Assembly: GCF_000014265.1 (NCBI RefSeq)
Contig: NC_008312.1
Coordinates: 4,290,001 to 4,322,000 of the forward strand
DNA: 32,000 bases
Source of the DNA: Trichodesmium erythraeum IMS101
Lineage (GTDB): Bacteria; Cyanobacteriota; Cyanobacteriia; Cyanobacteriales; Microcoleaceae
Direction: 5' to 3'
Part shown: positions 1-20,000 of the stretch, one piece after another
Layout: every line of letters starts with the position of its first letter
Position numbering within the stretch: position 1 is the stretch's first letter
Program-made: the position numbers and the translations under genes
The notes under the pieces: model-generated
Told to the model about the DNA's origin: nothing
What the model saw: only the letters and a program-made list of their open reading frames with translations
Database searches by the model: none

Positions 1-1026
1 AGATTTTTGGAGTAATTCATCAACAGATATACTCTCAGGTACCATATTTTTTCGTACAACACTATTTTTCCATGTTTCTAAATGATAGTATGAAAATTTA
101 CCAGTTTCAGGTAAGCATAAAGGGTCCTTAGGATATTTTGAATTTTCAAACTTCCAAGTTAGGGAAACTCCTGATTTACAAACTATTCCTTTATCATCAA
201 CCAAAAACATTAATAAATAAGTTTTTTGGTGAGTAGCTTTTTCGACTATTGGCCACCAAAATTTTTTAATTAAATCTGGTAAAAAACCTGTAAAAGTACG
301 GTGGAGTCCTGAAAAAATAAAAATTAAATTTTGAGTTTCTAAACATTGTAAAATTGCATTAATAACCTGTTCGTCTGTAGTATTTGAACCAAAAAATTCA
401 GAAGAAATTTTTCCCCATAATTCCCTAATATCGCTCATCCGAGTTAAATCCCTTTGGATTTTACGTCCATTACTTAATTCTGGCAATTTACGTAATAGCC
501 TAGTAAGCAGAGCTTTCTGACCACAATTTTCATCATACCCATCAATCAGAAAAGCTCCCGTTCGTTTGTGTGATTTTTGGCATTTTATAGCTTTTCTAAC
601 AGTATCTTCTTGTTCTGAAAAATCAATATCAATTATTGATTGAAACAACTGGCTGTTATTATTATTGCCTAAAGATGTTGATGAATTTAAGGGTAAAGAT
701 GGATTTTCTAATTCTTTTTTAACCTTGTTCCATAAATTATTAATTCTATGCCACATCTCGTCTTCTTCATAGTATTCATCTCTCAAATTTTCCAAAAAAA
801 TTATAAATATACACCCATATTCTTGATGTCTTGTTTTTATTAAAATATCCAGATTTAACATCACTAATAACCCTGGTGTATTAGCTTCTTTCAGTTTATT
901 TGATACCACATTTAATTCCTTAATTGCCCCGCAAAAACTACGCAAGTATTGAAAATTGGTAAAAATGTCGCATTCTAAAAGAACATCCCTGCATTCTTTA
1001 TAAAGTTCTCCTGGTAGCCCACTCAT
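1..1026 (-). CDS. Partial CDS (N-terminal 342 codons, continues past the left edge): death-like/EAD-type N-terminal adaptor module plus a STAND-like NTPase core with a degenerate P-loop
   Basis: Absent from the supplied track because it has no stop in the window. I checked all 342 minus-strand codons and found no in-frame stop. ATG at 1026-1024; product starts MSGLPGELYKECRDVLLECDIFTNFQYLRSF. The first 45 aa align gap-free with the N-terminus of the 1521-4466 product (14 identities by eye). GAFLIDGYDENCGQKALLTRLLRKL sits where a Walker A would be but lacks GK[ST]. NLIFIFSGLHRT is Walker-B-like but lacks the acidic residues. Confidence 0.65.
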   Translation of the reverse strand, partial: MSGLPGELYKECRDVLLECDIFTNFQYLRSFCGAIKELNVVSNKLKEANTPGLLVMLNLDILIKTRHQEYGCIFIIFLENLRDEYYEEDEMWHRINNLWNKVKKELENPSLPLNSSTSLGNNNNSQLFQSIIDIDFSEQEDTVRKAIKCQKSHKRTGAFLIDGYDENCGQKALLTRLLRKLPELSNGRKIQRDLTRMSDIRELWGKISSEFFGSNTTDEQVINAILQCLETQNLIFIFSGLHRTFTGFLPDLIKKFWWPIVEKATHQKTYLLMFLVDDKGIVCKSGVSLTWKFENSKYPKDPLCLPETGKFSYYHLETWKNSVVRKNMVPESISVDELLQKS

Positions 1027-1042
1027 ACAATTTTTTATAAAG

Positions 1043-1143
1043 ATTGTATTACACTATTAATATATAATAATAGAAATCTACACCTATAGCATTTTTTTGG
1101 CAAACCCAGTTAAAAACCATCTTGATAATTTTGTCCCAACCTT
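1043..1143 (-). promoter_or_regulatory. Conserved upstream element, copy A (about 17-117 nt upstream of the ATG at 1026); probable shared promoter or 5' leader
   Basis: Aligns with 4486-4602 upstream of the neighbouring paralogous-N-terminus gene. Shared blocks on the + strand: attgta, acactattaa, atataataat, agcattttttt, gcaa, cagtta, aaaccatcttgataa, gtcc, aacctt. Roughly 80 percent identity by eye apart from a 16-nt insertion in copy B. Confidence 0.5.
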
Positions 1144-1271
1144 TGAATTTCTTGCCCAGTCACATACCAAAAACTTACAGCAGGTCTACCATGCAGGAAA
1201 ACTGCTATATGATAATTTTCTGCAATCTTTTCTTAATATTCAACAGTTCTTGTCACAAGATATTATATTCA

Positions 1272-1368
1272 TGACTTACCCAGAACTGCCATATCTAGCA
1301 TTTACCCCCTATGGTATTTGCCACCTACAGATAGCGCATTATCTAAGAGTTTGTGTAGGTCCTGTATA
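1272..1368. repeat. MITE/REP-like small inverted-repeat element, possibly nested inside a larger copy spanning 1172-1428
   Basis: Left end tGACTTACCCAgaac (1273-1282 is identical to the 10-mer in the 9018 copy). Right end GTAGGTCCTGTATA (1355-1368). The termini are inverted complements with one mismatch. Outer candidate termini are aacttacagca (1172-1182) and taagtcttgtta (1417-1428). Confidence 0.4.
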
Positions 1369-1520
1369 TTTTAGTCATTTTTTTTTGATAATGACACTAC
1401 ATTTACTGTCATAGCCTAAGTCTTGTTAGAAAATGTTCTTGAGTTGCACTACCGCTTAACCAAACCTGTGATACTATCACTTTTTTATTCAAAATATTTG
1501 AAATTACTTCAAGTTATCAA

Positions 1521-4466
1521 CTACTCAGAATTCGAGCATTTCACCTTTGCTTCTTCAGGTGTTGAAAATTTGTCAGGAATAAACATGAAACCGGACGGCT
1601 GACTCGGACAACGATAAACCCGAATTGAGTTCAACGGTACTTTTTGACGATCGCCAGTCCCTGATTTAAATATAATTTCTCCTGTAGCCCCCTGAACGAT
1701 GAAATTTTCATCTGCCAATGTCTTCTGAATTCCTTTGCTAGTAGGGCGAGTACCTTGTTCCTGAATACCTTTAAGAATTACCTGCATTGCGTCATAGCTA
1801 AAAGCTGTACGGGCGCTAACATAACCTTCCCAAAGTTTGACAGCGGTATCAAAAAAATCAGAATTGTTGAGAGGATGCCCAGGAACAATCAAAATCAGTT
1901 TTTCTAGGAGTTGATATCGTGTTTCTTGGGATTGATCTTGAGCAATTTTCAAGGTTCTCGGGCTATAAACTGACCAATTAGCTACTATCCAATTTTGACC
2001 ACCATTTTCTTCAATAATTTTGAGACTATTATCGAAAGCATCACTTACTTGACCATCTGATATTAAAACAATTGCGAATTCCTGATCTCCTGCTTGTCTG
2101 CGGGCCTCATTGATGGCATCTTTAACCTTAAAATTATCCTCAGCAAAATAATCCATATTAAGTGATAAATTAATTATTTCTCCTTTTCCTTCAAATTTTT
2201 CTTCAAATTGTTTTTTTAAATCAGCGGAATAATAACTCTTAGGATTATAAAAAATTACAACTCTTGTTTGATTTTTATTCAGCAAAGAGTTAACCATGTT
2301 CTCTGCTTGCTCAATAGTCGTTGTGGTAGTCCGGAAAAAAACGTCTACCCTTTCTTCGGCGGTGAGTTTAGAAGTGGTTGTGCCTGGGGAAACCATTACT
2401 AGTTTTGCATCATCATATATATCTTTAGTCGCCATAGTCATCTCACTAGCCCAATGACCAACAACACCTAAAATTTCTGGGCGGCCGACTATTTTCTTCG
2501 CAACGTTCTCTGCGCCATCCTCTGAGTTAGCATCATTAGCAATAATAACTTTTAAGCCTTTATCATTATCATTATCATTAAACCTTTTGGCTTTTAGATC
2601 TACATTTGGAAAAGGCAAAAAAGAGAATTGCTTTTTCTTGAATAAACTTAAGTTAACTTCTGTTTGTGCTTGAGCTACTCCCCGCAAAATTTCTTCAGCA
2701 AGTTCTCCATTCACCTGCTCATTTTGATCTATAACTGGAACTACAACTGCAATAGTATAAGGATCAGCTTTTATATGTTCTAAAAAAGCATTATTGATAT
2801 AAATTAAAGTTTCTGGGTCCCGCCTTTCATTCTTCCAGCTTTCCTTAAGAGTATTTGCCACTCCAGCAAAACAATTCTGTATTTTAGTATTATTTTTCCA
2901 AATAGCTTGAAAATGATTCCAGGATTTCTGGCAGTATTGAACTTCTTTTACACCATTTTCTTTTTCTAGAGGTCTAGATGATTCTACCAGAATTTCCTCA
3001 CCTATACTAATGTTATCACCAAGAGGCTCATGTCTAGGAAGATAAATTAACCAGCGATAAATTGAAAAAATATCAATCAGAATCAACAAAAACGAAATTA
3101 TCCAACCGGTAGGATTTTGGGACAAAAACAGAGTTATCCCCCTGGTAAGATTTTGGGTTAGCCCAGGTTCATCTCCAATCAGCTCTTCTTTTCCCACAGG
3201 GGGTCTGGATGGTATTGAATTAAGACGATCATTGAAAATAGGAATTTCCCATTCTTGGATTTTTCCCCCTTCTCGGGATGCTTCAAGAAACCAAGATTTC
3301 AACTGATCCTTGCCTTTAATGAGTTCAAGTTCAATTTTATTAACTGTATAGTAATGCCAAATTTGTTTAGCTTTAGTATCAGTATGGTCACGTAGATAAA
3401 GGACAAAGGGGTAACCGGCAGTAATTTTTGTATTCAAGTGCATTTGAGCATCGACAGGATGATCGGTCAGTAACAAACAGGCACGATGTTTTCTAGCCCA
3501 ATTTTGGGTGTTATTGTCGTCACAAGCTTGGTGAAATTGGTGGGTATGAATAGCCAGTTTGCCCTCATTATTTTCACCAATAAGCTGAAGAAAGCTTGTA
3601 TTCAAACCCAAAATTCCGAGTTTTGCACTATTCTTTTCGATAGTGGCTGAAAAATCTCCTGGTAGAATACCAGCTTTTAGGTGTTCTGGCTTCCAGGGTT
3701 GTCTTTTCCACCAAGCCATATAATTTGCAAAAGCTTCAGCCATGACTAGACGATAGTCTGATTTTGCATCCTCCCAAAATTCTTGTTGTACCTCTGGTTC
3801 CTCAGACCACCGTTTTAGAAGTCTTACCGCTGGTTCTTTTTGATTAGGTCTAACTAAATCGTGATTTCCAGGTATTGCTAGTAGCTTAGGAGACGAACCC
3901 CATTCTTGGAATTTTGCCCATAGTTGTTCCAAAAGCTGATCGAGCTTTTCAAATTCTTCAGCACTACCCTCCTGAGTCAAATCACCAGTAAATAGCACTA
4001 AGTCCCACGGCTCACTTTTCTCGTGGAGCCTGTTTAAATCTTCAAAAAATCTTTTTTTTACGCGAGATGATCCCCCATTCTGTTCTTTTATGACTTGATG
4101 AAAGTCGGTTAAGTGTAACCAATTAAAGCTAGTTTTGTTATCAACACTATTCAGCTGTTTATTAAGCTCTTTTTCTAATTTAGATAAAGTGCTATGCCGA
4201 CTATCTTCTCGGTCAAACGTCTCACAAAGCAACCTTACCAAAATAACGAGTCCATTCTTATTGGTATGATATTTACCCACTAAAAAGCCAATCACGTGTG
4301 TTACTCGTTGGTCCGTATTGATACCTTGTGGTAAACTATTAGCCCAAAGGGAGAGCTGACGGTGACCGTTGAAAAAACTCTGTAGTTCTTCATTGCTGTT
4401 AAATTGCTCACACCTTGACAGAGATGCACTCAGTTTAGAATAGAGTTCAGGAGAAATTCCGCCCAT
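1521..4466 (-). CDS. Single-pass membrane receptor-like protein: EAD-type N-terminal module, calcineurin-like metallophosphoesterase, TM helix, extracytoplasmic type-I periplasmic-binding-protein (LivK/Peripla_BP_6-like) domain
   Basis: 981-aa ORF with an ATG start. Phosphoesterase motifs: WLHLTDFHQ (DxH), FTGDLTQEG (GD), IPGNHD (GNHD), LLLTDHP. The last motif reads LRDHTD rather than GHxH. One hydrophobic span, WIISFLLILIDIFSIYRWLIYL (about aa 455-476). The C-terminal ~480 aa carry PBP-like signatures: ISIGEEIL, VVGHWASEMTMA, VMVSPGTTTSKLT. Confidence 0.85.
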   Translation of the reverse strand: MGGISPELYSKLSASLSRCEQFNSNEELQSFFNGHRQLSLWANSLPQGINTDQRVTHVIGFLVGKYHTNKNGLVILVRLLCETFDREDSRHSTLSKLEKELNKQLNSVDNKTSFNWLHLTDFHQVIKEQNGGSSRVKKRFFEDLNRLHEKSEPWDLVLFTGDLTQEGSAEEFEKLDQLLEQLWAKFQEWGSSPKLLAIPGNHDLVRPNQKEPAVRLLKRWSEEPEVQQEFWEDAKSDYRLVMAEAFANYMAWWKRQPWKPEHLKAGILPGDFSATIEKNSAKLGILGLNTSFLQLIGENNEGKLAIHTHQFHQACDDNNTQNWARKHRACLLLTDHPVDAQMHLNTKITAGYPFVLYLRDHTDTKAKQIWHYYTVNKIELELIKGKDQLKSWFLEASREGGKIQEWEIPIFNDRLNSIPSRPPVGKEELIGDEPGLTQNLTRGITLFLSQNPTGWIISFLLILIDIFSIYRWLIYLPRHEPLGDNISIGEEILVESSRPLEKENGVKEVQYCQKSWNHFQAIWKNNTKIQNCFAGVANTLKESWKNERRDPETLIYINNAFLEHIKADPYTIAVVVPVIDQNEQVNGELAEEILRGVAQAQTEVNLSLFKKKQFSFLPFPNVDLKAKRFNDNDNDKGLKVIIANDANSEDGAENVAKKIVGRPEILGVVGHWASEMTMATKDIYDDAKLVMVSPGTTTSKLTAEERVDVFFRTTTTTIEQAENMVNSLLNKNQTRVVIFYNPKSYYSADLKKQFEEKFEGKGEIINLSLNMDYFAEDNFKVKDAINEARRQAGDQEFAIVLISDGQVSDAFDNSLKIIEENGGQNWIVANWSVYSPRTLKIAQDQSQETRYQLLEKLILIVPGHPLNNSDFFDTAVKLWEGYVSARTAFSYDAMQVILKGIQEQGTRPTSKGIQKTLADENFIVQGATGEIIFKSGTGDRQKVPLNSIRVYRCPSQPSGFMFIPDKFSTPEEAKVKCSNSE

Positions 4467-4485
4467 ATTTTTATCGACAAAAATT

Positions 4486-4602
4486 ATTGTACTACACTAT
4501 TAACATATACACCATTAACATATAATAATCAGGAGCTACAATTACAGCATTTTTTTTTGCAAGTTCAGTTAGAAACCATCTTGATAAATTAGTCCTAACC
4601 TT
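4486..4602 (-). promoter_or_regulatory. Conserved upstream element, copy B (about 20-136 nt upstream of the ATG at 4466)
   Basis: Homologous to 1043-1143 (see that feature). Contains an internal duplication of attaacatata that is absent from copy A. Confidence 0.5.
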
Positions 4603-4716
4603 ATTACCTGATGATATTTCGATGGAAGAGTTTGAATATTTGTTAGATTTGGCACCGGGAAAAGATGTCAAACTTTTCTCATAAAATGGTTTTGAAAACA
4701 TTAAATTCCGATTCTT

Positions 4717-6081
4717 TTAATACCTCATAAACTCAGGACTACCAAAAATTAAAGCCGCCCTTAAATCACCAGGACTTTGATCAATTACCCCACGAGTCTG
4801 AGCAGAAAAATTATTACCCAAAGTCCCCATTAACTTTTCTGCACTAATAGGTTTACCCCGACCCAATAAACCACCAGATAAAGGCACAGCTAAACTACTC
4901 CGTCGAATCATGGTATCCGAATCTAACCAAGCATCTTTTGTATTTTTATAACCATCAGGAGTAATACAACCATAAATAGGCATTCCTAACTGGTCTAAAA
5001 TCCCATTAATAGGTCGAAAATTATCAACCTCATTACCAATAGCTCTCATCGCAGAAACTACAAACCGATAAGGATTTTTAAACTTAGAATTATATACCTC
5101 TGGTTGCCAAAACTCTGAACTATTGAACAGAGTATTAAGTACCCGAGAAATATCCCCATCACTCTCCAAAAAACTCTGAGATAAAACTTTTACTAAAGAC
5201 TCAGATGGTTGGTCTAAAACAAAAGTTTGAGCTAATTTATAACTAATATATCTAGCCGTTGAAGGATGACTAGCCAAAATATCTAAAGCTGTTTCACCTT
5301 CAGCTATCCCATTCTCTTTAATTGTTTGTCCGAGAAAAAATTTATCTCCTGGTTCGTGACGTTTTTGATCAAAATAAAATCCATCTTTATCTTCTGCTCT
5401 TTTGTTATTAGGAGGTAGACCCCAACCAGTCAAAATTTTTGCTAAAGCCATAACATCATCTTGACTATAGCCTCCATCCACACCTAAAGTATGTAATTCT
5501 AATAATTCTCTAGCATAATTTTCATTTATTCTACCTCTACGGCTTTGCCAATTATCTAAATAAATTAACATAGCTGGATGATGAGCAGTAGCGCCTAATA
5601 ATAATCTAAACTTTCCCAAAGCATAGGGTCTAATTGCCTGCTGTTCATAACAGCTAAAATATAAACGATTTAGTCCTTGACGACCAAAAACATTAAAGTG
5701 ATTATACCAAAAATCTACCATCACCTCCTCTAAATGACGCGGACTTTCTAGATTCCTTAAAAAACGTCCTTTACTCCCCTGTAAAAAAACCTTTTGCTCA
5801 AAACGTTGTTTGATTCTATTTAATGCTATTCTATCTAATTTTAATTCTTTTCCCTGTTGTTGAAGTTGTTGTAATTCTTTGATTATTTCACTAGGAGTTA
5901 GGGGTAATGTATCTAGATATTTTAGCTTTTGAATTAGTAGTTTTTGGTAGGGTATAGAATTAGGTTCTAGTTGAGATTGAATATAATTTTCTACACCAAT
6001 ATTTTTAATCTTTTCAAGTTGTCCAGGAGTCGGTCCTAAACTAAGACGATTAATTAAGTGTAAAATTTTAATATCAGCCAT
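4717..6081 (-). CDS. DUF1800 family protein
   Basis: 454-aa ORF with an ATG start. Family-typical motifs: DFWYNHFNVF and NENYARELLELHTLGVDGGYSQDDVMALAKILTGWG. Confidence 0.85.
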   Translation of the reverse strand: MADIKILHLINRLSLGPTPGQLEKIKNIGVENYIQSQLEPNSIPYQKLLIQKLKYLDTLPLTPSEIIKELQQLQQQGKELKLDRIALNRIKQRFEQKVFLQGSKGRFLRNLESPRHLEEVMVDFWYNHFNVFGRQGLNRLYFSCYEQQAIRPYALGKFRLLLGATAHHPAMLIYLDNWQSRRGRINENYARELLELHTLGVDGGYSQDDVMALAKILTGWGLPPNNKRAEDKDGFYFDQKRHEPGDKFFLGQTIKENGIAEGETALDILASHPSTARYISYKLAQTFVLDQPSESLVKVLSQSFLESDGDISRVLNTLFNSSEFWQPEVYNSKFKNPYRFVVSAMRAIGNEVDNFRPINGILDQLGMPIYGCITPDGYKNTKDAWLDSDTMIRRSSLAVPLSGGLLGRGKPISAEKLMGTLGNNFSAQTRGVIDQSPGDLRAALIFGSPEFMRY

Positions 6082-6675: not shown

Positions 6676-8742
6676 TTAGCCATGACCACGACCATTACCA
6701 TTACCATTCTTGATCAAGACCTTTTCAGCTAACTTATTTGGCACTTCTTGTAAATGATCAAATTGCCAATTAAAAGAACCCACTCCCATTGTTTGCGATC
6801 GCAACTCCACAATTAAATCTTGCATTTCTGACAAAGCCAAATAAGCAGAAGTCTTATCCCACCTTTCCCAGTCAGTCATACTTTCATAACCCAATATCTG
6901 ACCACGACGGATACTAATTAACTGCAAAACTTTTGAAGTAAACTCATTAGGTGCAAAAATATCCACCAAAGCAATAGGTTCCAACAATACTGGTTGGCAG
7001 TCACTCATTCCCTGCTGCATTGCCACTCGCGCTGCCTGCTTAAATGCTTGCTCCGAACTATCAACAGAATGATGCGACCCATTAGTCAACGTCACCGCCA
7101 CATCAACCACGGGAAAACCGAGAGGACCCTGTTGAAGATATTCCCGCACCCCTGTTTCCACACCAGAAATATATTGCTTCGGCACCACTCCACCGACAAC
7201 AGTTTCACTAAAATTAAAACCTGACCCCCGTGGCAACGGTTGAATATCTAAATACACATCCCCAAACTGCCCATGACCCCCACTTTGATGTTTATAACGA
7301 CCATGAGAAGTAGTCTTTTTCCGAATAGTTTCTTTATAGGGAACTCGGGGTAAGTAAGTTTTCATCGAAACATTATACTTTCGGTGCAAACGCTCTAAAC
7401 TTACCTGTAGATGAATTTCTCCTTGACCCCAAAAGATGACTTCGTGAGTATCCCCATGTTGTTCCCATATTAATGCCGGGTCTTCTTCTAGCAACTTTGT
7501 TAAAGCGCTGCTCATTTTTACTTCATCTTTACGGTTTTCCGGAGCGATCGCCATAGCAAAAACAGGAGGCAATAGTATTACTCTTGGCAACTTAGTTTTC
7601 CCATCTGCATCTATAGTTAAAGTATCACCTGTATGTATACCTTCCATCCGACTGAGGGCAACTATTTCTCCAGTTTTAGCTAACTCTAGACTTTCTGTTT
7701 GCTGACCCATCAACCGATATATTCCACCGATGCGCACTCCATTTAAAATCATGCCATCAATAATTTCCCCTTGCCATACCCGAACTAATGAGAGTTTACC
7801 ACCTTGAGGAGTGTAGTAAGTTTTCAAAACTTGAGCAATAGGTGTTTCAGAATTTGATTTTAAACCTCGACGTTTTGCCGTTTCTTTTGGTACAGGAGTT
7901 TCTCGCACCAGAGCATCTAGGAGGGAACGCACACCAGAATCTTTTTCTGCCACCCCTACAAATACAGGTACAATTAAATCTGCACTTAACTCCATTTTGA
8001 TGTCAGCAACTATTTCTTCAGTAGGTGGTTCGATATTTTCGACCAACTCTTCCAATAAATTATCATCAAAATTAGCTAACTCTTCCAGCATTTGTTCTCT
8101 AGCAGCTTGTTCTTCTACTTTCAAAGACTCAGGAATTGTTACAGGGTCTGATGGCGCCCCTGGATGATAATGATAAGCTTGTTCAGTTACTAGGTCAATA
8201 AATCCAATAAGTTGGTTATTTTTAGCAATGGGGTATTGATGGGGAACAATGGGGCGGTTGGATACAGTTTTGAGTGCTTCTAATACTTCACCAAAGTTAG
8301 ATTTACAATGAGTTTCATCCCTACAGACCCGATCCATTTTGTTGATGAAGACTATATGAGGAATTTCCCAGTCATCAAGAAATTTTAATAGTGGAGCAAG
8401 GGTTAGAACACGAGCTGGGTCTGGTTCACACACGACTATTGCTGCCCCTGCTCCAATAAGAGCGTTATTGGTTTCTTGAGCAAATTCTATGGAACCAGGG
8501 CAGTCTAGAAAGGTAAAGTTAATGCCGTCGTACTTAGTACTAGCGGCATTTATTTCTACTGTCATGGAGCGATCGCGAGCTTCTGGACTACCATCTCCAA
8601 TGGTGTTACCATCTTTAACACTGCCTTTACGGGATATTGCTTTTGTAATTGATAATAGGCTTTCTAGTAATGTTGTTTTTCCACTTAAATAAGGGCCTAC
8701 TATGGCAATATTCCTGACATTTGAAGCGACTTTTTCTGACAT
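6676..8742 (-). CDS. Elongation factor G paralogue (translational GTPase, EF-G-like)
   Basis: 688-aa ORF. AGGAGG lies 6 nt upstream of the ATG. G motifs: GPYLSGKTT (G1), LDCPG (G3), NKMD (G4). EF-G domain IV/V-like sequence follows (HGRYKHQSGGHGQFGDV). Unusual tail NGNGNGRGHG. Confidence 0.9.
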   Translation of the reverse strand: MSEKVASNVRNIAIVGPYLSGKTTLLESLLSITKAISRKGSVKDGNTIGDGSPEARDRSMTVEINAASTKYDGINFTFLDCPGSIEFAQETNNALIGAGAAIVVCEPDPARVLTLAPLLKFLDDWEIPHIVFINKMDRVCRDETHCKSNFGEVLEALKTVSNRPIVPHQYPIAKNNQLIGFIDLVTEQAYHYHPGAPSDPVTIPESLKVEEQAAREQMLEELANFDDNLLEELVENIEPPTEEIVADIKMELSADLIVPVFVGVAEKDSGVRSLLDALVRETPVPKETAKRRGLKSNSETPIAQVLKTYYTPQGGKLSLVRVWQGEIIDGMILNGVRIGGIYRLMGQQTESLELAKTGEIVALSRMEGIHTGDTLTIDADGKTKLPRVILLPPVFAMAIAPENRKDEVKMSSALTKLLEEDPALIWEQHGDTHEVIFWGQGEIHLQVSLERLHRKYNVSMKTYLPRVPYKETIRKKTTSHGRYKHQSGGHGQFGDVYLDIQPLPRGSGFNFSETVVGGVVPKQYISGVETGVREYLQQGPLGFPVVDVAVTLTNGSHHSVDSSEQAFKQAARVAMQQGMSDCQPVLLEPIALVDIFAPNEFTSKVLQLISIRRGQILGYESMTDWERWDKTSAYLALSEMQDLIVELRSQTMGVGSFNWQFDHLQEVPNKLAEKVLIKNGNGNGRGHG

Positions 8743-15139: not shown

Positions 15140-15283
15140 ACGGCTTAGTAGGAGCGAATAACTCTGAATTCTTCCCAAGATGTTTAGGTAGCATTCTACA
15201 GGAAAACGCCCCTACAAAACCTAATTATACTAATGCTACCAGACTTAATATCACTACTGTCCGGTTGAATAGTTATTATAGTA

Positions 15284-15348
15284 GGACTTACGCCAGGAAA
15301 CTATATATAGTGTTTAATATTTATTTTCGATCTATATTCTGTAAGTCC
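15284..15348. repeat. MITE/REP-like small inverted-repeat element
   Basis: ggacttac (15284-15291) and gtaagtcc (15341-15348) are inverted. The left end ggacttacgccaggaaac resembles gaacttacgccaaaaaac at 6525. It contains the same palindrome, actatatatagt, as the 9018 copy. Confidence 0.5.
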
Positions 15349-15498
15349 CACTAATAAACTAGAAAATTGTGTATAAAGGGTTGCCCGAAGTTAAAATAGT
15401 GAAGTTAATTTCGATTTGCAGATAACTCTTATGTCCTTATAGGTAAAATTCCTACTGCTTTTTTGTGTTGAAATGACAAATTTAAAAGAATTTCTTGA

Positions 15499-16575
15499 TT
15501 TTTGTACCGTAGAGGAAAAACCAGTAATTTTTATATTCAGCTATGGGATACTGAAGAAATAAAGTTAGACTAAGTGCGGGAGTTGTTTTGGAATAAGCCA
15601 TCGGTTGATTTGTTGGTATTGTCTGCTTGTCGCACTGCTGTAAGAACTGGAATTTAGACTAAATACTTGAAGGTGCTATTAAGAAAAGAATTAAAAAAAA
15701 TTGAAACCATCAACAGATGTGAGAAACAAGATTTGACATTAGTTGACATGCATTGAGGGGCATAATAATTTTTTAACCCACTATCATACTCATCAGTGAT
15801 ACTGATACTCAGACTATTCAACTTCTTTGTCAACAATAATCAAAAGAGCTGTGGCTTTATAATTTAAAAATTCTTCAAAACCTCTGTCTCTTCAGGATGG
15901 TAGGTATTGTTTATTCAAAATGCTATAAATAATTGCTATGTCTGAGTTTGATGTCTTTTTACCATCTATTTAGGAACAACTCTAAAGATAAAATCAGGCA
16001 TTAAATTAAAATTATTTTGCTCAAATGCTTGATTTCACGTTAAAATCATTTCGTAATCAAGTTGATCATTTATTGGAAAATGCCAAGGATGCTGTTTTTG
16101 AACTGACTGATGCAGTAATGTTAAGCCCTAGTCCCAACTGGAACTGCATAATTATCTTTGTCCCCAGCATATCCCAGACAATGGCACAGCTACCATCAAG
16201 GCTCTCGAAAATTGTCATCAATAACAATATAAATTGATTGCAGTTTATATCAACCAAATGCCATTGTTGGTAGGAGATCATAGTGCTTGGCTACGAACAG
16301 AAACGAGTGTTTGGTCCGTGAGTGATCAAGGTACATTGGGGTTAATGACAGAGTTTTATACTCATTTGAATAGTGTTAAGATTAAGTCAGAGGCGTTAAT
16401 ACAGGGACAGTTAGCAATGTTGCAAGGGAAGGTGGTTATTACATATCGGGAGTTGAGGGGAAGCAACACTCGTGGTGTGGTGAAATTACCCTCGGCGTTC
16501 GCAAATATTAAGAATCAAAATTTATCTCATCTTTATTATTGGGAAGGGTTTACTATTGTTGTTAGTTCTTGGTAA
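15499..16575 (+). pseudogene. Relic of a CHAT-domain (caspase-like) protease gene: C-terminal part only, with an in-frame stop and a ~0.6-kb insertion
   Basis: One frame at 15499-15657 reads FLYRRGKTSNFYIQLWDTEEIKLD*VRELFWNKPSVDLLVLSACRTAVRTGI*. It carries the CHAT catalytic-Cys motif LVLSAC and a TAA at 15571-15573. The frame at 16234-16575 ends SVWSVSDQGTLGLMTEFY...LSHLYYWEGFTIVVSSW, a typical CHAT C-terminus. The N-terminal bulk of the gene is absent (the M16 gene ends at 15139). Confidence 0.7.
16025..16237 (+). mobile_element. Remnant of a DDE transposase N-terminus (IS4/IS701-like) inside the CHAT relic
   Basis: FRNQVDHLLENAKDAVFELTDAVMLSPSP resembles, from memory, the N-termini of cyanobacterial IS4/IS701-type transposases. 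There is no DDE core, and I found no terminal repeats. Confidence 0.35.
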
Positions 16576-16998
16576 TAAATACTACTGAGTAAGTATTTAT
16601 ATTTAATCATAACCTACGCACGAGCACTACATCCAGTCAAGGTAAATGCCATTCGCAACTACATATAGCGTTTTCAAGGTTAATTTGCTTAATTACTATT
16701 AATATCTCCCTAATAATTTGACTCCTGCTCAAGGTAAATGAAGATAATTTTTATAGTATAAATACTTAAGCAAATTACTGATTTTATACTAATTTTTATG
16801 CTAAAAATTGAAGTAGAGAATGTGGGCTATAATATTATCTCCAGTTAAATGCTTACACTTTGGAGGGTTTTCCTAGGAGGCTCTATGGCTCTCAGCAGAA
16901 GGATAGAATTGACAGTTACGGTCCTTAGTTTTTTGATCACTGATGTTCCGGACATAATATTACTTATTATCCGGACATCATATTAAAAACAGAACCGG

Positions 16999-17014
16999 AC
17001 GTTTTATGAAACGT
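16999..17014 (-). terminator. Weak candidate intrinsic terminator downstream of the GDPD/RTX gene
   Basis: The minus strand reads acgtttcataaaacgt (6-bp stem, 4-nt loop) followed by ccggttctgttttt. The stem is short and AT-rich. Confidence 0.3.
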
Positions 17015-17060
17015 ACCTACCTGAGTCTAGTGAGTTCAAAACCGTTGTTAAATATACTCC

Positions 17061-20000
17061 CTAATTTCTAATTTGGAAATTATCCTCAGTAATATTGGGA
17101 GCACCATCAAGGATAGCAAACTGAGTAGACTCACCATCTACATTGTAGAATAGACCTCCAGACTTTTCACTATAAACAATGAAAGCATCAGAGTCATCTA
17201 CACTATTATCAGTGTTAACGGTTTCAAAATCATTATTAACACTAAAACCAATTCCAGCAGTACTATTAAGCTCAGTAAAGCTTGACTTATCAAGAAGAAT
17301 TAAGTCGCCTTGGTTTCCATCTTCATTTGTCCTGAGGTCTAGTTGGAAATTATTGATAGTATCAATACCAAAATTATCAGACTCAAATTCTTCATTACTA
17401 TTGAAGATAAAGCGGTCAATACTTGCACCACCAGTCAAAGTATCATCACCAGGACCGCCATTGATGCGATCACGCCCTTGACCACCATTTAACTGATCAT
17501 CACCATCACCACCCAAGAGGTGATCGTTGCCTTGACGACCTTGAAGTTCATCATTACCATCCTGACCCAACAATAAGTCATTGCCACGACTACCAATTAT
17601 TTGATCATTACCAATACGACCTGCTAAGGTATCCGCGCCATTCAAACCGATAATAGTATCGTCTCCAACACCACCAATGAGACGCTCTGTTTTAGGAGTA
17701 CCTTTAATTAGCAAACCCTTATCAACAAGGAGAGGTTGTTCTAGCTCTATCTGAATTATTTCGGTATTATCAATATCATCTCCTCGGCTTTTGGAGAAAG
17801 GATAGTTGTTGTCGTTGGCAACCAGAATAGTGTTTTCATCAATAACTAACATATTCTCAATGCTGGAAAAAGGGAAGTTAAAGCTAGTATCTCCATCACC
17901 ATTAAGGTCATTAGGATCCTCAATATCTAATAAGTCTACAATTTCCTCTTTTTCAACAAAACCCTGATCATCAACTTCATAAATGTCAATTTTAAATATT
18001 TTTTTGAACTCAGCTTCATTCCCTTGACGATCATCCAGTTCAATAACTAAAAATTCACTTTCATTAATAGGAGTAAAGTCACCGATAGTATGACCAGTAA
18101 CATCAGTAGGATAGAAACCAACTAGCTCCTCCTCAAAAGAGCTAGAAACAGAGTCGAACTCGTAAATTCGTAAAGCATTATCTGGATCGCCTTCAACTGT
18201 ACCCCCTAATAAAGGATAGAAAGTTTGGCGATCGCGACTGAATGCCATACCTTTATAACCGCTGGAAGTAGCCAAATTAGGGTCGTTTTGTTCTAGAACT
18301 TTACGACCTGTCCCAGGGAAGTCAGTAAAGAAACCATCTACACCTATATCTATTAGTTGTTGAAATTCCTCCTCCGCAGTTTGAGGTGTTCCTGTGCCAA
18401 AAGCTTCTAGATCAGACTTGAGGGTAAGGTAACGCTCTTCATCCCGTAAAGTGTAGGGATGAACCTGTAAACCTGCATCGTGAGCATCTTCGATAAAGGA
18501 AGTAATTTCTCCTGTTAACTGGGTACTTATTTCAGCTACACCATCTCCGTTACCATCGACTCGAGTATCAAGGGACTCACGCAACAGAATGTTATTCTTC
18601 CAAGTTCCAACACCTTCTGCATATATACCACTAATAACTTTCAGAAATTCTTCACTGTCAAGGTCTGCATAAACTGTATTTTCTGAGAGAGAAACTTCTA
18701 CTGCATTTAGGAATGCTTGACCATAGATAGCTGCTAAGTCGTTATCTTGAGCAACATTAAACCTAATGTCGAAGGGGGAAGAAAAGGTACTGTTTGGATC
18801 TGCTCCTTCTGTAGTATTTCCATACAGTTGAACTAAAGGAATATCACCGAGACTTTGAGCATTCAACTGTTTTTGTAAGTCAATTAAGTTAGCAAACTCA
18901 AACGACTGGATGAAAATACGATCTGGGTCAGTGAAACTTGTATTTTGTAGGGTTTGAATTAGAGGTTCTTCTAAGGATAAACCTTGTTGGTCAAAGAACG
19001 TAGGATGTTTAGTTTCCGGATAGATACCGACCTCAAACCCAGATTCTTCCATTTTTTGTACCAACTCGATAACTTCTTGGAAGGTGGGAATTTCAAATTG
19101 ACCGTTAAAAGATTGATCACGGAAATCTCGAGGTTGAACAGCGCGTAATTGTTTGATTTCTTCAAGGGTGAAATCTTCAGCAAAATAGCCAGTAGTTTCT
19201 ACTCCATCAAGAAACTTAGTGCTTTGACGTTCTGAAGCGAATACTTCAGCAACATTTGTAGTATCGTCTAACAGTGGCTCGTGTCGGGCAATAAGCACAC
19301 CATCGGCAGTAATTACCAGGTCTGGTTCAATAAAATCTGCACCTTTTTCGATCGCTAGTCTATAAGCTTCTAGAGTATGTTCGGGACGAGAACCACTTGC
19401 ACCCCGGTGTCCAATGACTAAAGGCGCTTCCCCACTCAGAGAGTTAAAGGAAATTTCTGGGTTTTGGGGAGAGCGAACTTCATCATTAGAGTCGTTTTGT
19501 TCTAGAACTTTACGACCTGTCCCAGGGAAGTCAGTAAAGAAACCATCTACACCTATATCTATTAGTTGTTGAAATTCCTCCTCCGCAGTTTGAGGTGTTC
19601 CTGTGCCAAAAGCTTCTAGATCAGGCTTGAGGGTAAGGTAACGCTCTTCATCCCGTAAAGTGTAGGGATGAACCTGTAAACCTGCATCGTGAGCATCTTC
19701 GATAAAGGAAGTAATTTCTCCTGTTAACTGGGTACTTATTTCGGCTACACCATCTCCGTTACCATCGACTCGAGTATCAAGGGACTCACGCAACAGAATG
19801 TTATTCTTCCAAGTTCCAACACCTTCTGCATATAGACCACTAATAACTTCCAGAAATTCTTCACTGTCAAGGTCTGCATAAACTGTATTTTCTGAGAGAG
19901 AAACTTCTACTGCATTTAGGAATTCTTGACCATAGATAGCTGCTAAGTCATTATCTTGAGCAACATTAAACCTAATGTCGAAGGGGGAAGAAAAGGTACT

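What the first reader, a model, noticed from the sequence alone, without database searches (positions are those of the whole stretch)
1521..4466. Receptor-like architecture: extracytoplasmic PBP sensor, one TM helix, cytoplasmic metallophosphoesterase with adaptor domain
The domain order implies that an N-terminal cytoplasmic EAD plus phosphoesterase is joined by one TM helix (about aa 455-476) to a ~480-aa LivK-type periplasmic binding domain. This would be a one-component transmembrane sensor whose output is a phosphoesterase rather than a kinase, cyclase or transporter.

Four phosphoesterase motifs look intact (DxH, GD, GNHD, DHP-type). The final GHxH position reads DHTD, so the active site could be a variant, or the domain could be regulatory.
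Basis: partly seen in the sequence, partly recalled or inferred. Interest (0 to 1): 0.75.

Follow-up and report, generated by a model that had tools for sequence, protein, structure and literature searches.

The report
Membrane-anchored Death-like adaptor with ligand-binding ectodomain
A Trichodesmium-only chimeric protein joins a cytoplasmic Death-like adaptor and a partly decayed phosphoesterase, both taken from a predicted cell-suicide/immunity operon, through one membrane helix to an outside-facing small-molecule-binding domain; this could link external cues to that system, but the protein evolves fast and is truncated or absent in sister lineages.

Summary
Window 1521-4466 (-) is one intact 981-aa ORF, identical to Trichodesmium erythraeum IMS101 ABG51952.1. 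Its order is bDLD1 Death-like domain, calcineurin-like phosphoesterase (MPE), one TM helix (aa 454-477), a helical juxtamembrane module, then a type I PBP.

- **Operon context.** The gene is the first gene of a vWA-MoxR-iSTAND ternary conflict system of the kind Kaur et al. 2020 described. Downstream lie bDLD1-iSTAND, an AAA ATPase, a vWA-like protein and TPR-CHAT. Nostoc and Aerosakkonemataceae carry the same operon with a soluble bDLD1-MPE protein.
- **Chimeric origin.** The TM-PBP half comes from a separate cyanobacterial receptor family (CHAT-TM-PBP at 53 % identity, kinase-TM-PBP at about 40 %).
- **Uniqueness.** In 1.84 billion representative proteins, only the target's own cluster has both halves.
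- **MPE decay.** Motifs I-III are intact. Motif IV His is Asp, GHxH reads DHxD, and a conserved ~25-aa segment is deleted.
- **Selection.** dN/dS is about 1.5 overall and 3.8 in bDLD1, yet the frame is maintained.
- **Instability.** Sister lineages carry a 397-aa truncation or an unrelated gene at this position.

Best reading: a lineage-specific, membrane-anchored, bDLD1-coupled accessory subunit of the iSTAND system. This is a new variant of a known kind, and everything functional is inferred.

The parts
1521..4466 (-). Whole gene, 981 aa (identical to T. erythraeum IMS101 ABG51952.1 / WP_011612313.1, annotated 'Extracellular ligand-binding receptor')
   Evidence: ORF list. Exact-sequence look-ups: 14 contigs and named cluster members.
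4146..4466 (-). bDLD1 (EAD3) Death-like adaptor domain, aa 1-107, a six-helix bundle
   Evidence: Pfam bDLD1 E 1.1e-3, below the cut-off. Orthologues reach it at up to 9e-12. AlphaFold models six helices at aa 6-107 with pLDDT ~95. hhalign to the iSTAND N-termini gives probability 97.5 %, E 6e-12. BLASTP to the neighbour's N-terminus gives E 2e-6.
3261..4139 (-). Calcineurin-like metallophosphoesterase module, aa ~110-402. The N-half is intact; the C-third is degenerate and loses the family's last ~45 aa.
   Evidence: Pfam Metallophos matches only model positions 4-72 here, against 4-190 in orthologues. Family alignment. Retention is 70/76 in the N-half and 11/20 plus 8 deleted columns in the C-half. 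Foldseek hits Rv0805, GpdQ, 5'-nucleotidase, PAP and Mre11. pLDDT is 41-67 for aa 340-410.
3456..3467 (-). Motif IV, T334-D335-H336-P337. The family consensus is THHP; the 99 %-conserved His is Asp here.
   Evidence: P0002 and the 397-aa truncated alleles still have His.
3378..3389 (-). Motif V, D360-H361-T362-D363. The family consensus is G-H-x-H at 97-99 %. It is followed by deletion of a conserved ~25-aa segment.
   Evidence: The change is shared by all Trichodesmium forms.
3108..3260 (-). Junction and linker, aa ~403-453. MPE-family homology ends at about aa 402. Homology to CHAT-TM-PBP proteins begins at about aa 396-403. Predicted disordered.
   Evidence: Segment BLASTP, full-length BLASTP to P0165, pLDDT <50 for aa 411-440.
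3036..3107 (-). Single transmembrane helix, aa 454-477 (WIISFLLILIDIFSIYRWLIYLP)
   Evidence: Hydropathy. AlphaFold helix at local 14-35, equal to aa 454-475. Aligned with the TM helix of P0165.
2775..2969 (-). Extracytoplasmic four-helix juxtamembrane module, aa ~500-564, with the family motif ERRDPETLIYxNNA and Cys512/Cys532
   Evidence: AlphaFold, A2 conservation, Cys conservation.
1524..2771 (-). Type I periplasmic-binding-protein / Venus-flytrap domain, aa ~566-981 (HAAT/LivK-like), with the invariant Cys953/Cys977
   Evidence: Pfam Peripla_BP_6 and ANF_receptor. PDB sequence hits to LivJ/LivK/4mlc. Foldseek TM-score 0.75-0.80 normalised by target length. 100/115 family-conserved positions kept.
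1239..3371 (.). Variable cassette. This segment holds target aa 366-981 plus 282 bp downstream. In other Trichodesmium lineages a 2.45-kb segment carrying an opposite-strand FAD_oxidored-SLH gene replaces it, leaving a 397-aa truncated protein.
   Evidence: BLASTN of L001 against L007, gene calls, protein sequences.
1..1026 (-). Downstream gene, cut by the window edge: bDLD1-iSTAND, 372 aa in full (Tery_2768). In the source contig it is followed by a MoxR-like AAA ATPase, a vWA (CoxE-like) protein and TPR-CHAT.
   Evidence: Pfam iSTAND 1.8e-18 and bDLD1 1.5e-11. Operon on L001/L008.
4508..4602 (.). ~94-bp element 42 bp upstream of the target's ATG. A second copy at window 1050-1143 lies 24 bp upstream of the iSTAND ATG (80-85 % identical). 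Possibly a shared leader or promoter.
   Evidence: No Rfam match. The promoter scan was not above shuffles.

Best explanation
The gene encodes a Trichodesmium-specific chimeric accessory subunit of a vWA-MoxR-iSTAND ternary conflict (immunity / programmed-cell-death) system.

**Cytoplasmic part.** Its N-terminal half, bDLD1 Death-like adaptor plus calcineurin-like phosphoesterase, is the orthologue of the bDLD1-phosphoesterase protein that precedes bDLD1-iSTAND in the same operon of other filamentous cyanobacteria.

**What changed in Trichodesmium.**
- The ~390-aa N-terminal domain of those orthologues was lost.
- The last ~45 residues of the phosphoesterase were replaced by the linker, TM helix, juxtamembrane helices and type I PBP of a CHAT-TM-PBP-type receptor.
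- The metal-site motifs IV and V decayed.

**Inferred mechanism.**
- The protein sits in the cytoplasmic membrane, N-in/C-out.
- Its bDLD1 pairs homotypically with the bDLD1 of the iSTAND protein, following the 'EAD principle'. This tethers the iSTAND / MoxR / vWA / TPR-CHAT machinery to the membrane.
- The PBP binds a small periplasmic ligand, probably an amino-acid-like carboxylate. That binding either gates the adaptor interaction (input) or merely localises it.
- The phosphoesterase is probably impaired or altered. It acts mainly as a scaffold or spacer, with at most residual (cyclic-)nucleotide phosphodiesterase activity.

**Shown:** architecture, operon membership, chimeric origin, motif decay, fast evolution with frame maintenance, and presence/absence polymorphism.

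**Inferred:** topology, the bDLD1-bDLD1 interaction, ligand binding, the direction of signalling, and loss of catalysis.
For: **Operon.**
- The target is followed by bDLD1-iSTAND, an AAA ATPase, a vWA_CoxE-like protein and TPR(-CHAT). Start and stop codons overlap from iSTAND onward.
- The same gene order, with an 885-890-aa bDLD1-MPE protein, occurs in Aerosakkonemataceae and Nostoc.
- This matches the published description of iSTAND systems and of EAD-tagged neighbouring effectors (PMC7159879 sections 20 and 30; PMC8195603 section 5).

**Same adaptor on both proteins.** hhalign gives 97.5 % probability, E 6e-12.

**Chimeric origin.**
- aa 1-402 are 55-65 % identical to the bDLD1-MPE orthologues.
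- aa ~455-981 are 53 % identical to CHAT-TM-PBP proteins and about 40 % identical to kinase-TM-PBP proteins.
- The junction lies at aa ~396-405.
- No other representative among 1.84e9 has both halves.

**A C-terminal ligand sensor on this orthologue group has a precedent.** P0009 and P0020 carry SAVED after the MPE.

**MPE decay.**

**The ORF is under selection to stay open.** There are 0 stop codons against 8.1 expected for 167 substitutions, and all 10 indels are in frame.

**The bDLD1 domains are the fastest-evolving parts.** The target's bDLD1 has omega 3.8 (p = 0.015). In the iSTAND protein, 17 of 31 amino-acid changes fall in its bDLD1. MoxR, vWA and p450 have omega 0.07-0.2.

**Ectodomain.** The Cys pair is invariant.
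Against: - No experiment exists for any iSTAND system. All function is inferred from domain logic.
- The target's bDLD1 is below Pfam's cut-off (19.7 against 25 bits).
- vWA is only weakly detected (23.7 bits against a cut-off of 26.4).
- dN/dS of about 1.1 in the PBP fits relaxed constraint as well as diversifying selection, and omega > 1 overall is not significant (p = 0.095).
- The gene is truncated to 397 aa in several lineages and absent from this slot in MAG_R03, while the iSTAND core persists. The TM-PBP part is therefore dispensable.
- There is a 494-bp gap between the target's stop and the iSTAND start. Co-transcription is unproven.
- Both metal-ligand changes are His->Asp, which could still bind metal, so loss of catalysis is not certain.
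- Topology rests on homology and hydropathy only. The positive-inside analysis was uninformative.
Confidence: 0.55

Rival explanations
1. The protein is an autonomous one-component transmembrane sensor. Ligand binding to the periplasmic PBP allosterically switches an active cytoplasmic phosphoesterase, for example one that hydrolyses cNMP or cyclic oligonucleotides. The N-terminal domain is a minor add-on.
For: - The layout is receptor-like, and sister families couple the same TM-PBP module to enzymes (kinase, CHAT protease).
- Motifs I-III are intact and the N-half keeps 70/76 conserved positions.
- The two altered metal ligands are His->Asp, which are chemically capable of metal binding.
- The closest structures are class III cNMP phosphodiesterases (Rv0805, GpdQ).
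- Orthologues with a C-terminal SAVED domain suggest that the MPE is ligand-regulated.
Against: - G360D within GHxH, loss of a 97 %-conserved ~25-aa segment, replacement of the C-terminal ~45 aa and low model confidence at aa 340-410 all argue against a normal active site.
- The Pfam model matches only positions 4-72 of 191.
- The bDLD1 and the conserved operon show that the protein belongs to a multi-protein system.
- The MPE regions have dN/dS of 1.5-2.6, not what is expected for a constrained enzyme.
Confidence: 0.15
2. An evolutionary relic. The gene is a recent chimeric gene on its way to pseudogenisation, with no current function. The intact frame in T. erythraeum is a transient state in a genome known for gene decay.
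For: - dN/dS is >= 1 in every domain except the juxtamembrane segment.
- Catalytic motifs have decayed.
- Sister lineages have a 397-aa truncated allele lacking part of the MPE fold, or no gene at all in this slot.
- Trichodesmium has an unusually low coding fraction (abstract of PMC4143802).
Against: - No stop codon appears among 167 substitutions, against 8.1 expected.
- All 10 indels between two alleles of ~1000 codons are in frame.
- The PBP keeps 100/115 family-conserved residues and TM/juxtamembrane keeps 16/17. The invariant Cys pair is also kept.
- Omega in bDLD1 is significantly above 1, the pattern of diversifying rather than neutral evolution. It is mirrored in the partner's bDLD1.
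Confidence: 0.2
3. An ordinary ABC-transporter substrate-binding protein, as current RefSeq naming implies, or an annotation or assembly fusion of two genes.
For: RefSeq and JGI name it 'ABC transporter substrate-binding protein'. The PBP is LivK-like.
Against: - No branched-chain-type permease or ATPase genes are adjacent. The only ABC genes in the window are an ABC_tran/CbiQ pair about 20 kb away.
- There is no signal peptide or lipobox. The PBP is anchored by an internal TM helix after 450 cytoplasmic residues.
- The identical ORF occurs on 14 contigs from independent assemblies, and the same sequence is in a finished genome.
Confidence: 0.03

Closest known systems
vWA-MoxR-iSTAND ternary conflict systems with bDLD1 (EAD3)-tagged neighbouring effectors (Kaur, Burroughs, Iyer, Aravind 2020 eLife, PMC7159879; Kaur et al. 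2021 eLife, PMC8195603). These are computational predictions only.
   Same: - The operon matches: bDLD1-iSTAND, a MoxR-like AAA ATPase, a CoxE-type vWA protein and a TPR-CHAT effector.
- A second bDLD1 copy sits on an adjacent effector-type protein.
- The calcineurin-like phosphoesterase is a listed effector class.
- The host is a filamentous, multicellular cyanobacterium.
- A subset of iSTAND systems is described as membrane-proximal.
   Different: - The bDLD1 protein carries a C-terminal TM helix plus an extracytoplasmic type I PBP.
- Its phosphoesterase motifs IV and V have decayed.
- It lacks the ~390-aa N-terminal domain of its orthologues.
- The papers mention TM+PBP only in the variable position of the caspase protein of an unrelated system ('System 4', EACC1), not with bDLD1, iSTAND or a phosphoesterase.
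Cyanobacterial CHAT-TM-PBP proteins (~890-900 aa; Okeania, Dapis, Hydrocoleum, Limnoraphis, Lyngbya) and 'bifunctional serine/threonine-protein kinase/ABC transporter substrate-binding protein' (~800 aa; Microcoleus and others)
   Same: - The TM helix, helical juxtamembrane module and PBP are homologous over aa ~455-981 (53 % and about 40 % identity).
- The Cys pair is invariant.
- The implied N-in/C-out receptor design is the same.
   Different: - The cytoplasmic part is bDLD1 plus a degenerate phosphoesterase instead of a CHAT protease or a kinase.
- The genomic context is different.
- My literature searches found no experimental characterisation of these families.
Class III cyclic-nucleotide phosphodiesterases / glycerophosphodiesterase of the calcineurin-like superfamily (Rv0805, CpdA/Icc, GpdQ)
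   Same: They are the best structural and sequence matches of the enzyme module, and motifs I-III are conserved.
   Different: - Sequence similarity is marginal (E ~0.02).
- Motif IV His and motif V G/H are replaced, and a conserved segment is deleted.
- No activity data exist.
Metazoan death receptors (TNFR1, Fas) and single-pass Venus-flytrap receptors (natriuretic-peptide receptor guanylyl cyclases). These are functional analogies recalled from general knowledge.
   Same: - The design is an extracellular ligand-binding domain, one TM helix and a cytoplasmic Death-fold adaptor. That adaptor would recruit a Death-fold-bearing STAND-like hub and a caspase-like (CHAT) protease.
- The PBP is homologous to ANF-receptor-type ectodomains.
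   Different: - The topology is opposite (type II).
- The ectodomain is not homologous to TNFR cysteine-rich domains.
- No evidence exists for ligand-induced oligomerisation or for signalling direction.
- bDLD1 is only a distant member of the Death-like fold.
Candidate anti-phage proteins sharing the phosphoesterase: PADLOC PDC-S60, NCBIfam DS8_antiphage and DS9_1 anti-phage phosphoesterase
   Same: The MPE N-half matches their phosphoesterase domains (PDC-S60 E 7.8e-17; DS8 1.6e-11; DS9_1 5.7e-11).
   Different: Scores are far below the family cut-offs (42.7 against 790 bits; 41.9 against 420 bits). Only about 200 residues of ~1000-residue models match. The target is not a member.

Membership tests
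Calcineurin-like metallophosphoesterase (Pfam Metallophos PF00149) | Score above Pfam's gathering threshold, and an alpha/beta-sandwich MPE fold | tested here: met
   40.6 bits against a cut-off of 21.5, but only model positions 4-72 of 191 match. Foldseek hits Rv0805, GpdQ, UshA, PAP and Mre11 at probability 1.00.
Calcineurin-like metallophosphoesterase (catalytically competent) | Motifs I (DxH), II (GD) and III (GNH[DE]) | tested here: met
   D121/H123, G161-D162 and G200-N201-H202-D203 are all conserved.
Calcineurin-like metallophosphoesterase (catalytically competent) | Motif IV His and motif V GHxH (metal ligands) | tested here: not met
   H335D (99 % His in 118 homologues), G360D, H363D and H357Y. 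The conserved ~25-aa segment after motif V is deleted.
bDLD1 / EAD3 bacterial Death-like domain (PF20689) | Profile match above the curated threshold | tested here: not met
   Target: 19.7 bits against a cut-off of 25 (E 1.1e-3). Orthologous segments of P0004, P0009 and P0014 pass it (35-45.6 bits).
bDLD1 / EAD3 bacterial Death-like domain (PF20689) | Six-helix Death-like bundle, and homology to the bDLD1 of the partner core protein | tested here: met
   AlphaFold models six helices at aa 6-107 with pLDDT ~95. hhalign to the iSTAND N-termini gives 97.5 %, E 6e-12.
vWA-MoxR-iSTAND ternary system (Kaur et al. 2020) | An iSTAND third component with an N-terminal EAD, next to a MoxR-type AAA+ ATPase | tested here: met
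   iSTAND 1.8e-18 and bDLD1 1.5e-11. The AAA protein hits AAA_5, AAA_2 and AAA, and weakly bpMoxR, with its start overlapping the iSTAND stop.
vWA-MoxR-iSTAND ternary system (Kaur et al. 2020) | A vWA component (CoxE-type) with a variable C-terminal or adjacent vWA-L effector | tested here: inconclusive
   VWA_CoxE scores 23.7 bits, E 3.7e-5, below the cut-off of 26.4. The next gene is TPR plus CHAT, 1281 aa in L008. The vWA-L domain was not tested.
vWA-MoxR-iSTAND ternary system (Kaur et al. 2020) | EAD principle: the same EAD on a core component and on a neighbouring effector, which interact homotypically | not testable with these tools
   The duplicate presence is shown. A physical interaction needs an experiment or multimer modelling.
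Type I periplasmic binding protein (Peripla_BP_6 / ANF_receptor) | Profile match above the cut-off, and a two-lobe Venus-flytrap fold | tested here: met
   54.3 bits against 31.7, and 42.8 against 25.4. TM-score 0.75-0.80 (normalised by target length) to Leu-bound SBPs.
ABC-transporter substrate-binding protein (functional class) | A secreted or lipid-anchored free SBP encoded with its cognate permease and ATPase | tested here: not met
   No signal peptide; anchored by an internal TM helix after 453 residues. No LivHMGF-type genes are nearby.
Single-pass PBP receptors of cyanobacteria (CHAT-TM-PBP / STK-TM-PBP) | A homologous TM helix, juxtamembrane helices and PBP, with an invariant C-terminal Cys pair | tested here: met
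   53 % identity over 97 % of aa 441-981. 16/17 and 100/115 conserved positions are kept. C953 and C977 are invariant.
Single-pass PBP receptors of cyanobacteria (CHAT-TM-PBP / STK-TM-PBP) | N-in/C-out topology and ligand-dependent control of the cytoplasmic domain | not testable with these tools
   No dedicated topology predictor was available. The flank-charge count was uninformative. The ligand is unknown.

The most novel reading that the evidence does not exclude
A bacterial analogue of a death receptor. Binding of an extracellular or periplasmic small molecule to the PBP ectodomain would change the oligomeric state of the membrane protein and expose or cluster its cytoplasmic Death-like domain. 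That cluster would nucleate the bDLD1-iSTAND hub, and through MoxR/vWA it would activate the TPR-CHAT (caspase-like) protease. External chemical cues, such as amino acids released by lysing neighbours, would then be wired to an immunity or programmed-cell-death module in Trichodesmium, a bloom-former known for caspase-like cell death. The decayed phosphoesterase would be a scaffold, like other catalytically dead MPE folds.
Probability: 0.2. Interest if true: 0.85.

Novelty: new variant of a known kind. Interest (0 to 1): 0.5.

Why it matters
**If the PBP is a real input.** This would be the first case in which a predicted bacterial Death-domain/STAND/caspase-like conflict system has an obvious extracytoplasmic ligand sensor. 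That gives a concrete, testable entry point into systems that have so far been described only computationally: a purifiable ectodomain and a defined adaptor pair. It would also suggest a route from external cues to cell death in Trichodesmium, an organism whose bloom collapse matters for ocean nitrogen and carbon budgets.

**Even without that.** The locus is a clean natural example of domain shuffling in a conflict system, and it shows four things:
- a receptor module (TM-PBP) swapped between CHAT, kinase and Death-like/phosphoesterase partners;
- decay of a catalytic site after fusion;
- fastest evolution in the adaptor domains of both partner proteins;
- presence/absence polymorphism between closely related lineages.

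**Annotation.** It corrects the current database name ('ABC transporter substrate-binding protein').

Tried and rejected
- **Genome-contig scan with the protein.** It found no relative. That collection seems to lack T. erythraeum, so the organism was identified through exact-sequence look-ups instead.
- **Positive-inside rule on the TM-PBP family alignment.** Uninformative. The target was skipped because its flank was too short, the TM columns aligned poorly, and K+R counts were 0.76 against 0.62. I do not use it.
- **Sigma-70 promoter and terminator scan of 900-4800.** 15 sites against 11.4 +/- 3.8 in shuffles, so no evidence either way on co-transcription.
- **Rfam scan of the whole window.** Nothing. 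The ~94-bp upstream repeat is not a known RNA.
- **Expression evidence.** No paper in the library mentions Tery_2767 to Tery_2770. The IMS101 primary-transcriptome paper has no supplements held.
- **Prior cataloguing of this locus.** The accessions are absent from the held supplements of both eLife papers, but most of the 2020 source data are not held. I cannot exclude that the iSTAND operon is listed there.
- **Membership in the anti-phage families DS8, DS9 and PDC-S60.** Rejected. Only the shared phosphoesterase domain matches, far below the cut-offs.
- **ABC-transport SBP.** Rejected (see rivals).
- **Assembly or annotation fusion artefact.** Rejected.
- **Ligand identity.** The Ser of GHWAS and the Thr of SPGTTT align with the LivJ carboxylate-binding Ser79/Thr102 by my own reading of the sequences. 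The LivJ sequence and residue roles are recalled from memory, not tool-verified. The Tyr202/Glu226 equivalents are not evident.

Full report
**1. The observation**

Window 1521-4466 on the minus strand is a single 981-codon ORF with an ATG start. The exact protein is called on 14 contigs from independent assemblies. It is identical to T. erythraeum IMS101 ABG51952.1 / WP_011612313.1, named 'Extracellular ligand-binding receptor' or 'ABC transporter substrate-binding protein'. It is therefore not a fusion artefact.

Pfam finds these domains:
- bDLD1 at aa 3-78: E 1.1e-3, 19.7 bits, below the cut-off of 25.
- Metallophos at aa 117-220: E 5e-10.
- Peripla_BP_6 at aa 623-936: E 2.3e-14.
- ANF_receptor: E 4.5e-11.

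Hydropathy shows one membrane-grade segment at aa ~455-477 and nothing signal-like at the N-terminus.

AlphaFold models built with family alignments give the following picture:
- Cytoplasmic half: a confident six-helix bundle at aa 6-107 (pLDDT ~95), a confident N-terminal phosphoesterase half, and low confidence at aa 340-410.
- C-terminal half: a TM helix at aa 454-475, a four-helix juxtamembrane module at aa ~500-564, and a two-lobe PBP.

Foldseek confirms both folds. The cytoplasmic half matches Rv0805, GpdQ, 5'-nucleotidase, purple acid phosphatase and Mre11. The ectodomain matches Leu-binding SBPs at TM-score 0.75-0.80 normalised by target length, and also the GABA-B, CaSR and ANP-receptor ectodomains.

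**2.

The truncated ORF at window 1-1026 (-) begins MSGLPGELY..., much like the target's MGGISPELY.... It is bDLD1 (1.5e-11) plus iSTAND (1.8e-18).

On the source contig the gene order is: target, bDLD1-iSTAND (372 aa, Tery_2768), an AAA ATPase (AAA_5/AAA_2, weak bpMoxR), a 411-aa protein with a weak VWA_CoxE match, then a TPR protein that ends in CHAT (1281 aa in L008). Start and stop codons overlap from iSTAND onward.

[quoted passage not shown] 2020 (PMC7159879, section 20). It includes that paper's 'EAD principle': one copy of an adaptor on a core component and another on a neighbouring effector (section 30; PMC8195603, section 5).

A profile-profile comparison of the target-family N-termini with iSTAND N-termini gives 97.5 % probability, E 6e-12.

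The closest non-Trichodesmium homologues are 55-65 % identical over aa 1-~400. They come from Aerosakkonemataceae, Microcoleus and Nostoc, and they sit in the same position of the same operon. They are 885-890-aa soluble proteins: an unannotated ~390-aa N-terminal domain, then bDLD1, then a complete phosphoesterase. Two orthologues add a C-terminal SAVED sensor.

**3. The phosphoesterase**

The module belongs to a very large, promiscuously fused family. Its partners include TIR, caspase, several EADs, STAND NTPases, TPR, FGE-sulfatase and SAVED. This agrees with the calcineurin-like 'effector' of the eLife papers.

Against 118 non-Trichodesmium members:
- Motifs I-III are intact.
- The 99 %-conserved His of motif IV is Asp335. 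It is still His in the 84 %-identical allele P0002 and in the truncated alleles.
- Motif V GHxH (97-99 % conserved) reads D360-H-T-D363 in all Trichodesmium forms.
- His357 is Tyr.
- A conserved ~25-aa segment (Q..SLFGLE..R) is deleted.
- WPR has become WFL.

Retention of positions conserved at 90 % or more, by region:

| Region | Retained |
|---|---|
| MPE N-half | 70/76 |
| MPE C-third | 11/20, plus 8 conserved columns deleted |
| TM / juxtamembrane | 16/17 |
| PBP | 100/115 |

The Pfam model matches only positions 4-72 here, against 4-190 in orthologues.

Both lost metal ligands are His->Asp, so metal binding is not excluded. From memory, E. coli 5'-nucleotidase has Gln at the second motif V position. 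Even so, the combination of changes makes normal catalysis unlikely.

**4. The TM-PBP half**

aa 441-981 are 53 % identical over 97 % of their length, TM helix included, to ~900-aa CHAT-TM-PBP proteins of Okeania, Dapis, Hydrocoleum and Limnoraphis. They are about 40 % identical to ~800-aa Ser/Thr-kinase-TM-PBP proteins.

A kinase must be cytoplasmic, so this module is an N-in/C-out receptor module. An invariant Cys953/Cys977 pair fits an oxidising compartment.

MPE-family homology runs to about aa 402, and CHAT-TM-PBP homology starts at about aa 396-403. The gene is therefore a chimera with its junction there.

An exhaustive HMMER pass over 1.84 billion representative proteins found only the target's own cluster spanning both halves. 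Every other hit covers either aa ~108-363 or aa ~455-981.

Kaur et al. mention TM plus extracellular PBP only in the variable position of the caspase protein of an unrelated system.

**5. Evolutionary dynamics**

Nei-Gojobori dN/dS against P0002 (84 % amino-acid identity, dS 0.044):

| Region | omega |
|---|---|
| Whole gene | 1.46 (141 nonsynonymous / 26 synonymous; p = 0.095 against 1) |
| bDLD1 | 3.8 (p = 0.015) |
| MPE | 1.5-2.6 |
| PBP | 1.1 |

There is no stop codon, where 8.1 would be expected under neutrality, and all 10 indels are in frame. The frame is therefore maintained while the sequence diversifies.

Between T. erythraeum and another lineage:
- p450, MoxR and vWA have omega 0.07-0.2.
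- The iSTAND protein has omega 1.6, with 17 of 31 amino-acid changes in its bDLD1.

Structurally, the segment window 1239-3371 (aa 366-981 plus 282 bp) is replaced in several lineages by a cassette carrying an opposite-strand FAD_oxidored-SLH gene. That leaves a 397-aa truncated protein. In Trichodesmium sp. MAG_R03 the slot holds an unrelated GHL10-like gene. The iSTAND core persists in all of them.

**6. Interpretation**

The data best fit a lineage-specific, membrane-anchored, bDLD1-coupled accessory subunit of the iSTAND system. It carries a captured receptor ectodomain and a decaying enzyme domain.

These points are inferred and untested:
- whether the PBP is an input that gates the Death-like adaptor (a 'death-receptor'-like logic);
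- whether it is merely a membrane or periplasm tether;
- whether it is an effector or decoy.

A pure-relic reading is weakened by frame maintenance and by retention of the PBP core.

**7. Novelty and score**

The parts, the operon logic and the idea of TM-PBP modules in conflict systems are all published. What is new is the specific combination, its chimeric origin, the localised catalytic decay and the polymorphism.

This is a new variant of a known kind, confined to one genus, with no experimental handle yet. Interest is moderate at 0.5. It would be high only if the outside-in signalling reading proves true.

Noticed in passing
window 1050-1143 and 4508-4602: A ~94-bp direct repeat (80-85 % identical) lies 24 bp upstream of the iSTAND ATG and 42 bp upstream of the target ATG. 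It may be a duplicated leader or promoter that co-regulates the two bDLD1 genes. It has no Rfam match, and a pattern scan found it at just one other place, upstream of the iSTAND gene of Trichodesmium sp. MAG_R03. The small ORFs overlapping it (69 aa upstream of the target; 1097-1414 on the + strand) are probably spurious.
   Followed up: partly
window 1239-3371; L007 9111-11564; L017 975-4241: The locus exists in three structural states in Trichodesmium: the full chimeric gene; a 397-aa truncation plus an opposite-strand FAD_oxidored-SLH gene; and an unrelated GHL10 glycosyl-hydrolase-like gene. The flanks are 92-99 % identical, which marks this as a recombination hotspot next to a conserved iSTAND core.
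   Followed up: yes
L001 13441-14559 against L007 11781-12899 (window 1-1026 holds the first 342 codons): The iSTAND protein itself evolves at dN/dS 1.6 between lineages, with 17 of 31 replacements in its bDLD1 domain. The adjacent MoxR and vWA genes are under strong purifying selection.
   Followed up: partly
P0127 (400 aa): This truncated allele is a mosaic. Its N-terminus resembles the T. erythraeum-type allele and its middle resembles the divergent P0002 allele (KKKPAVILLQRWSEEPEVRREFWKNPESEYRKVMDNAF). That suggests recombination between alleles in natural populations, which could inflate the dN/dS estimates.
   Followed up: no
P0003-P0014, aa 1-~390 (e.g. P0004): Orthologous bDLD1-phosphoesterase proteins of other cyanobacteria carry a conserved ~390-aa N-terminal domain with no Pfam match (MNEIPHNWGLRSPSLTLYAFHLRNS...). 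It is an uncharacterised domain of iSTAND systems and is lost in Trichodesmium.
   Followed up: no
window 17061-21209 (-): A 1382-aa protein combines GDPD (glycerophosphodiester phosphodiesterase), a phytase-like esterase domain and RTX calcium-binding repeats. It is probably a secreted phosphorus-scavenging enzyme.
   Followed up: no
window 6676-8742 (-) and 4717-6081 (-): An EF-G paralogue (688 aa, with all five EF-G domains) and a DUF1800 protein lie directly upstream of the target. They are nearly invariant between Trichodesmium lineages and show no evident link to the iSTAND system.
   Followed up: no
window 15140-17060 and 21210-23519: These are long stretches without ORFs of 100 aa or more, apart from one 113-aa TTG-start ORF at 16234-16575. 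They fit the unusually low coding density reported for Trichodesmium (PMC4143802).
   Followed up: no
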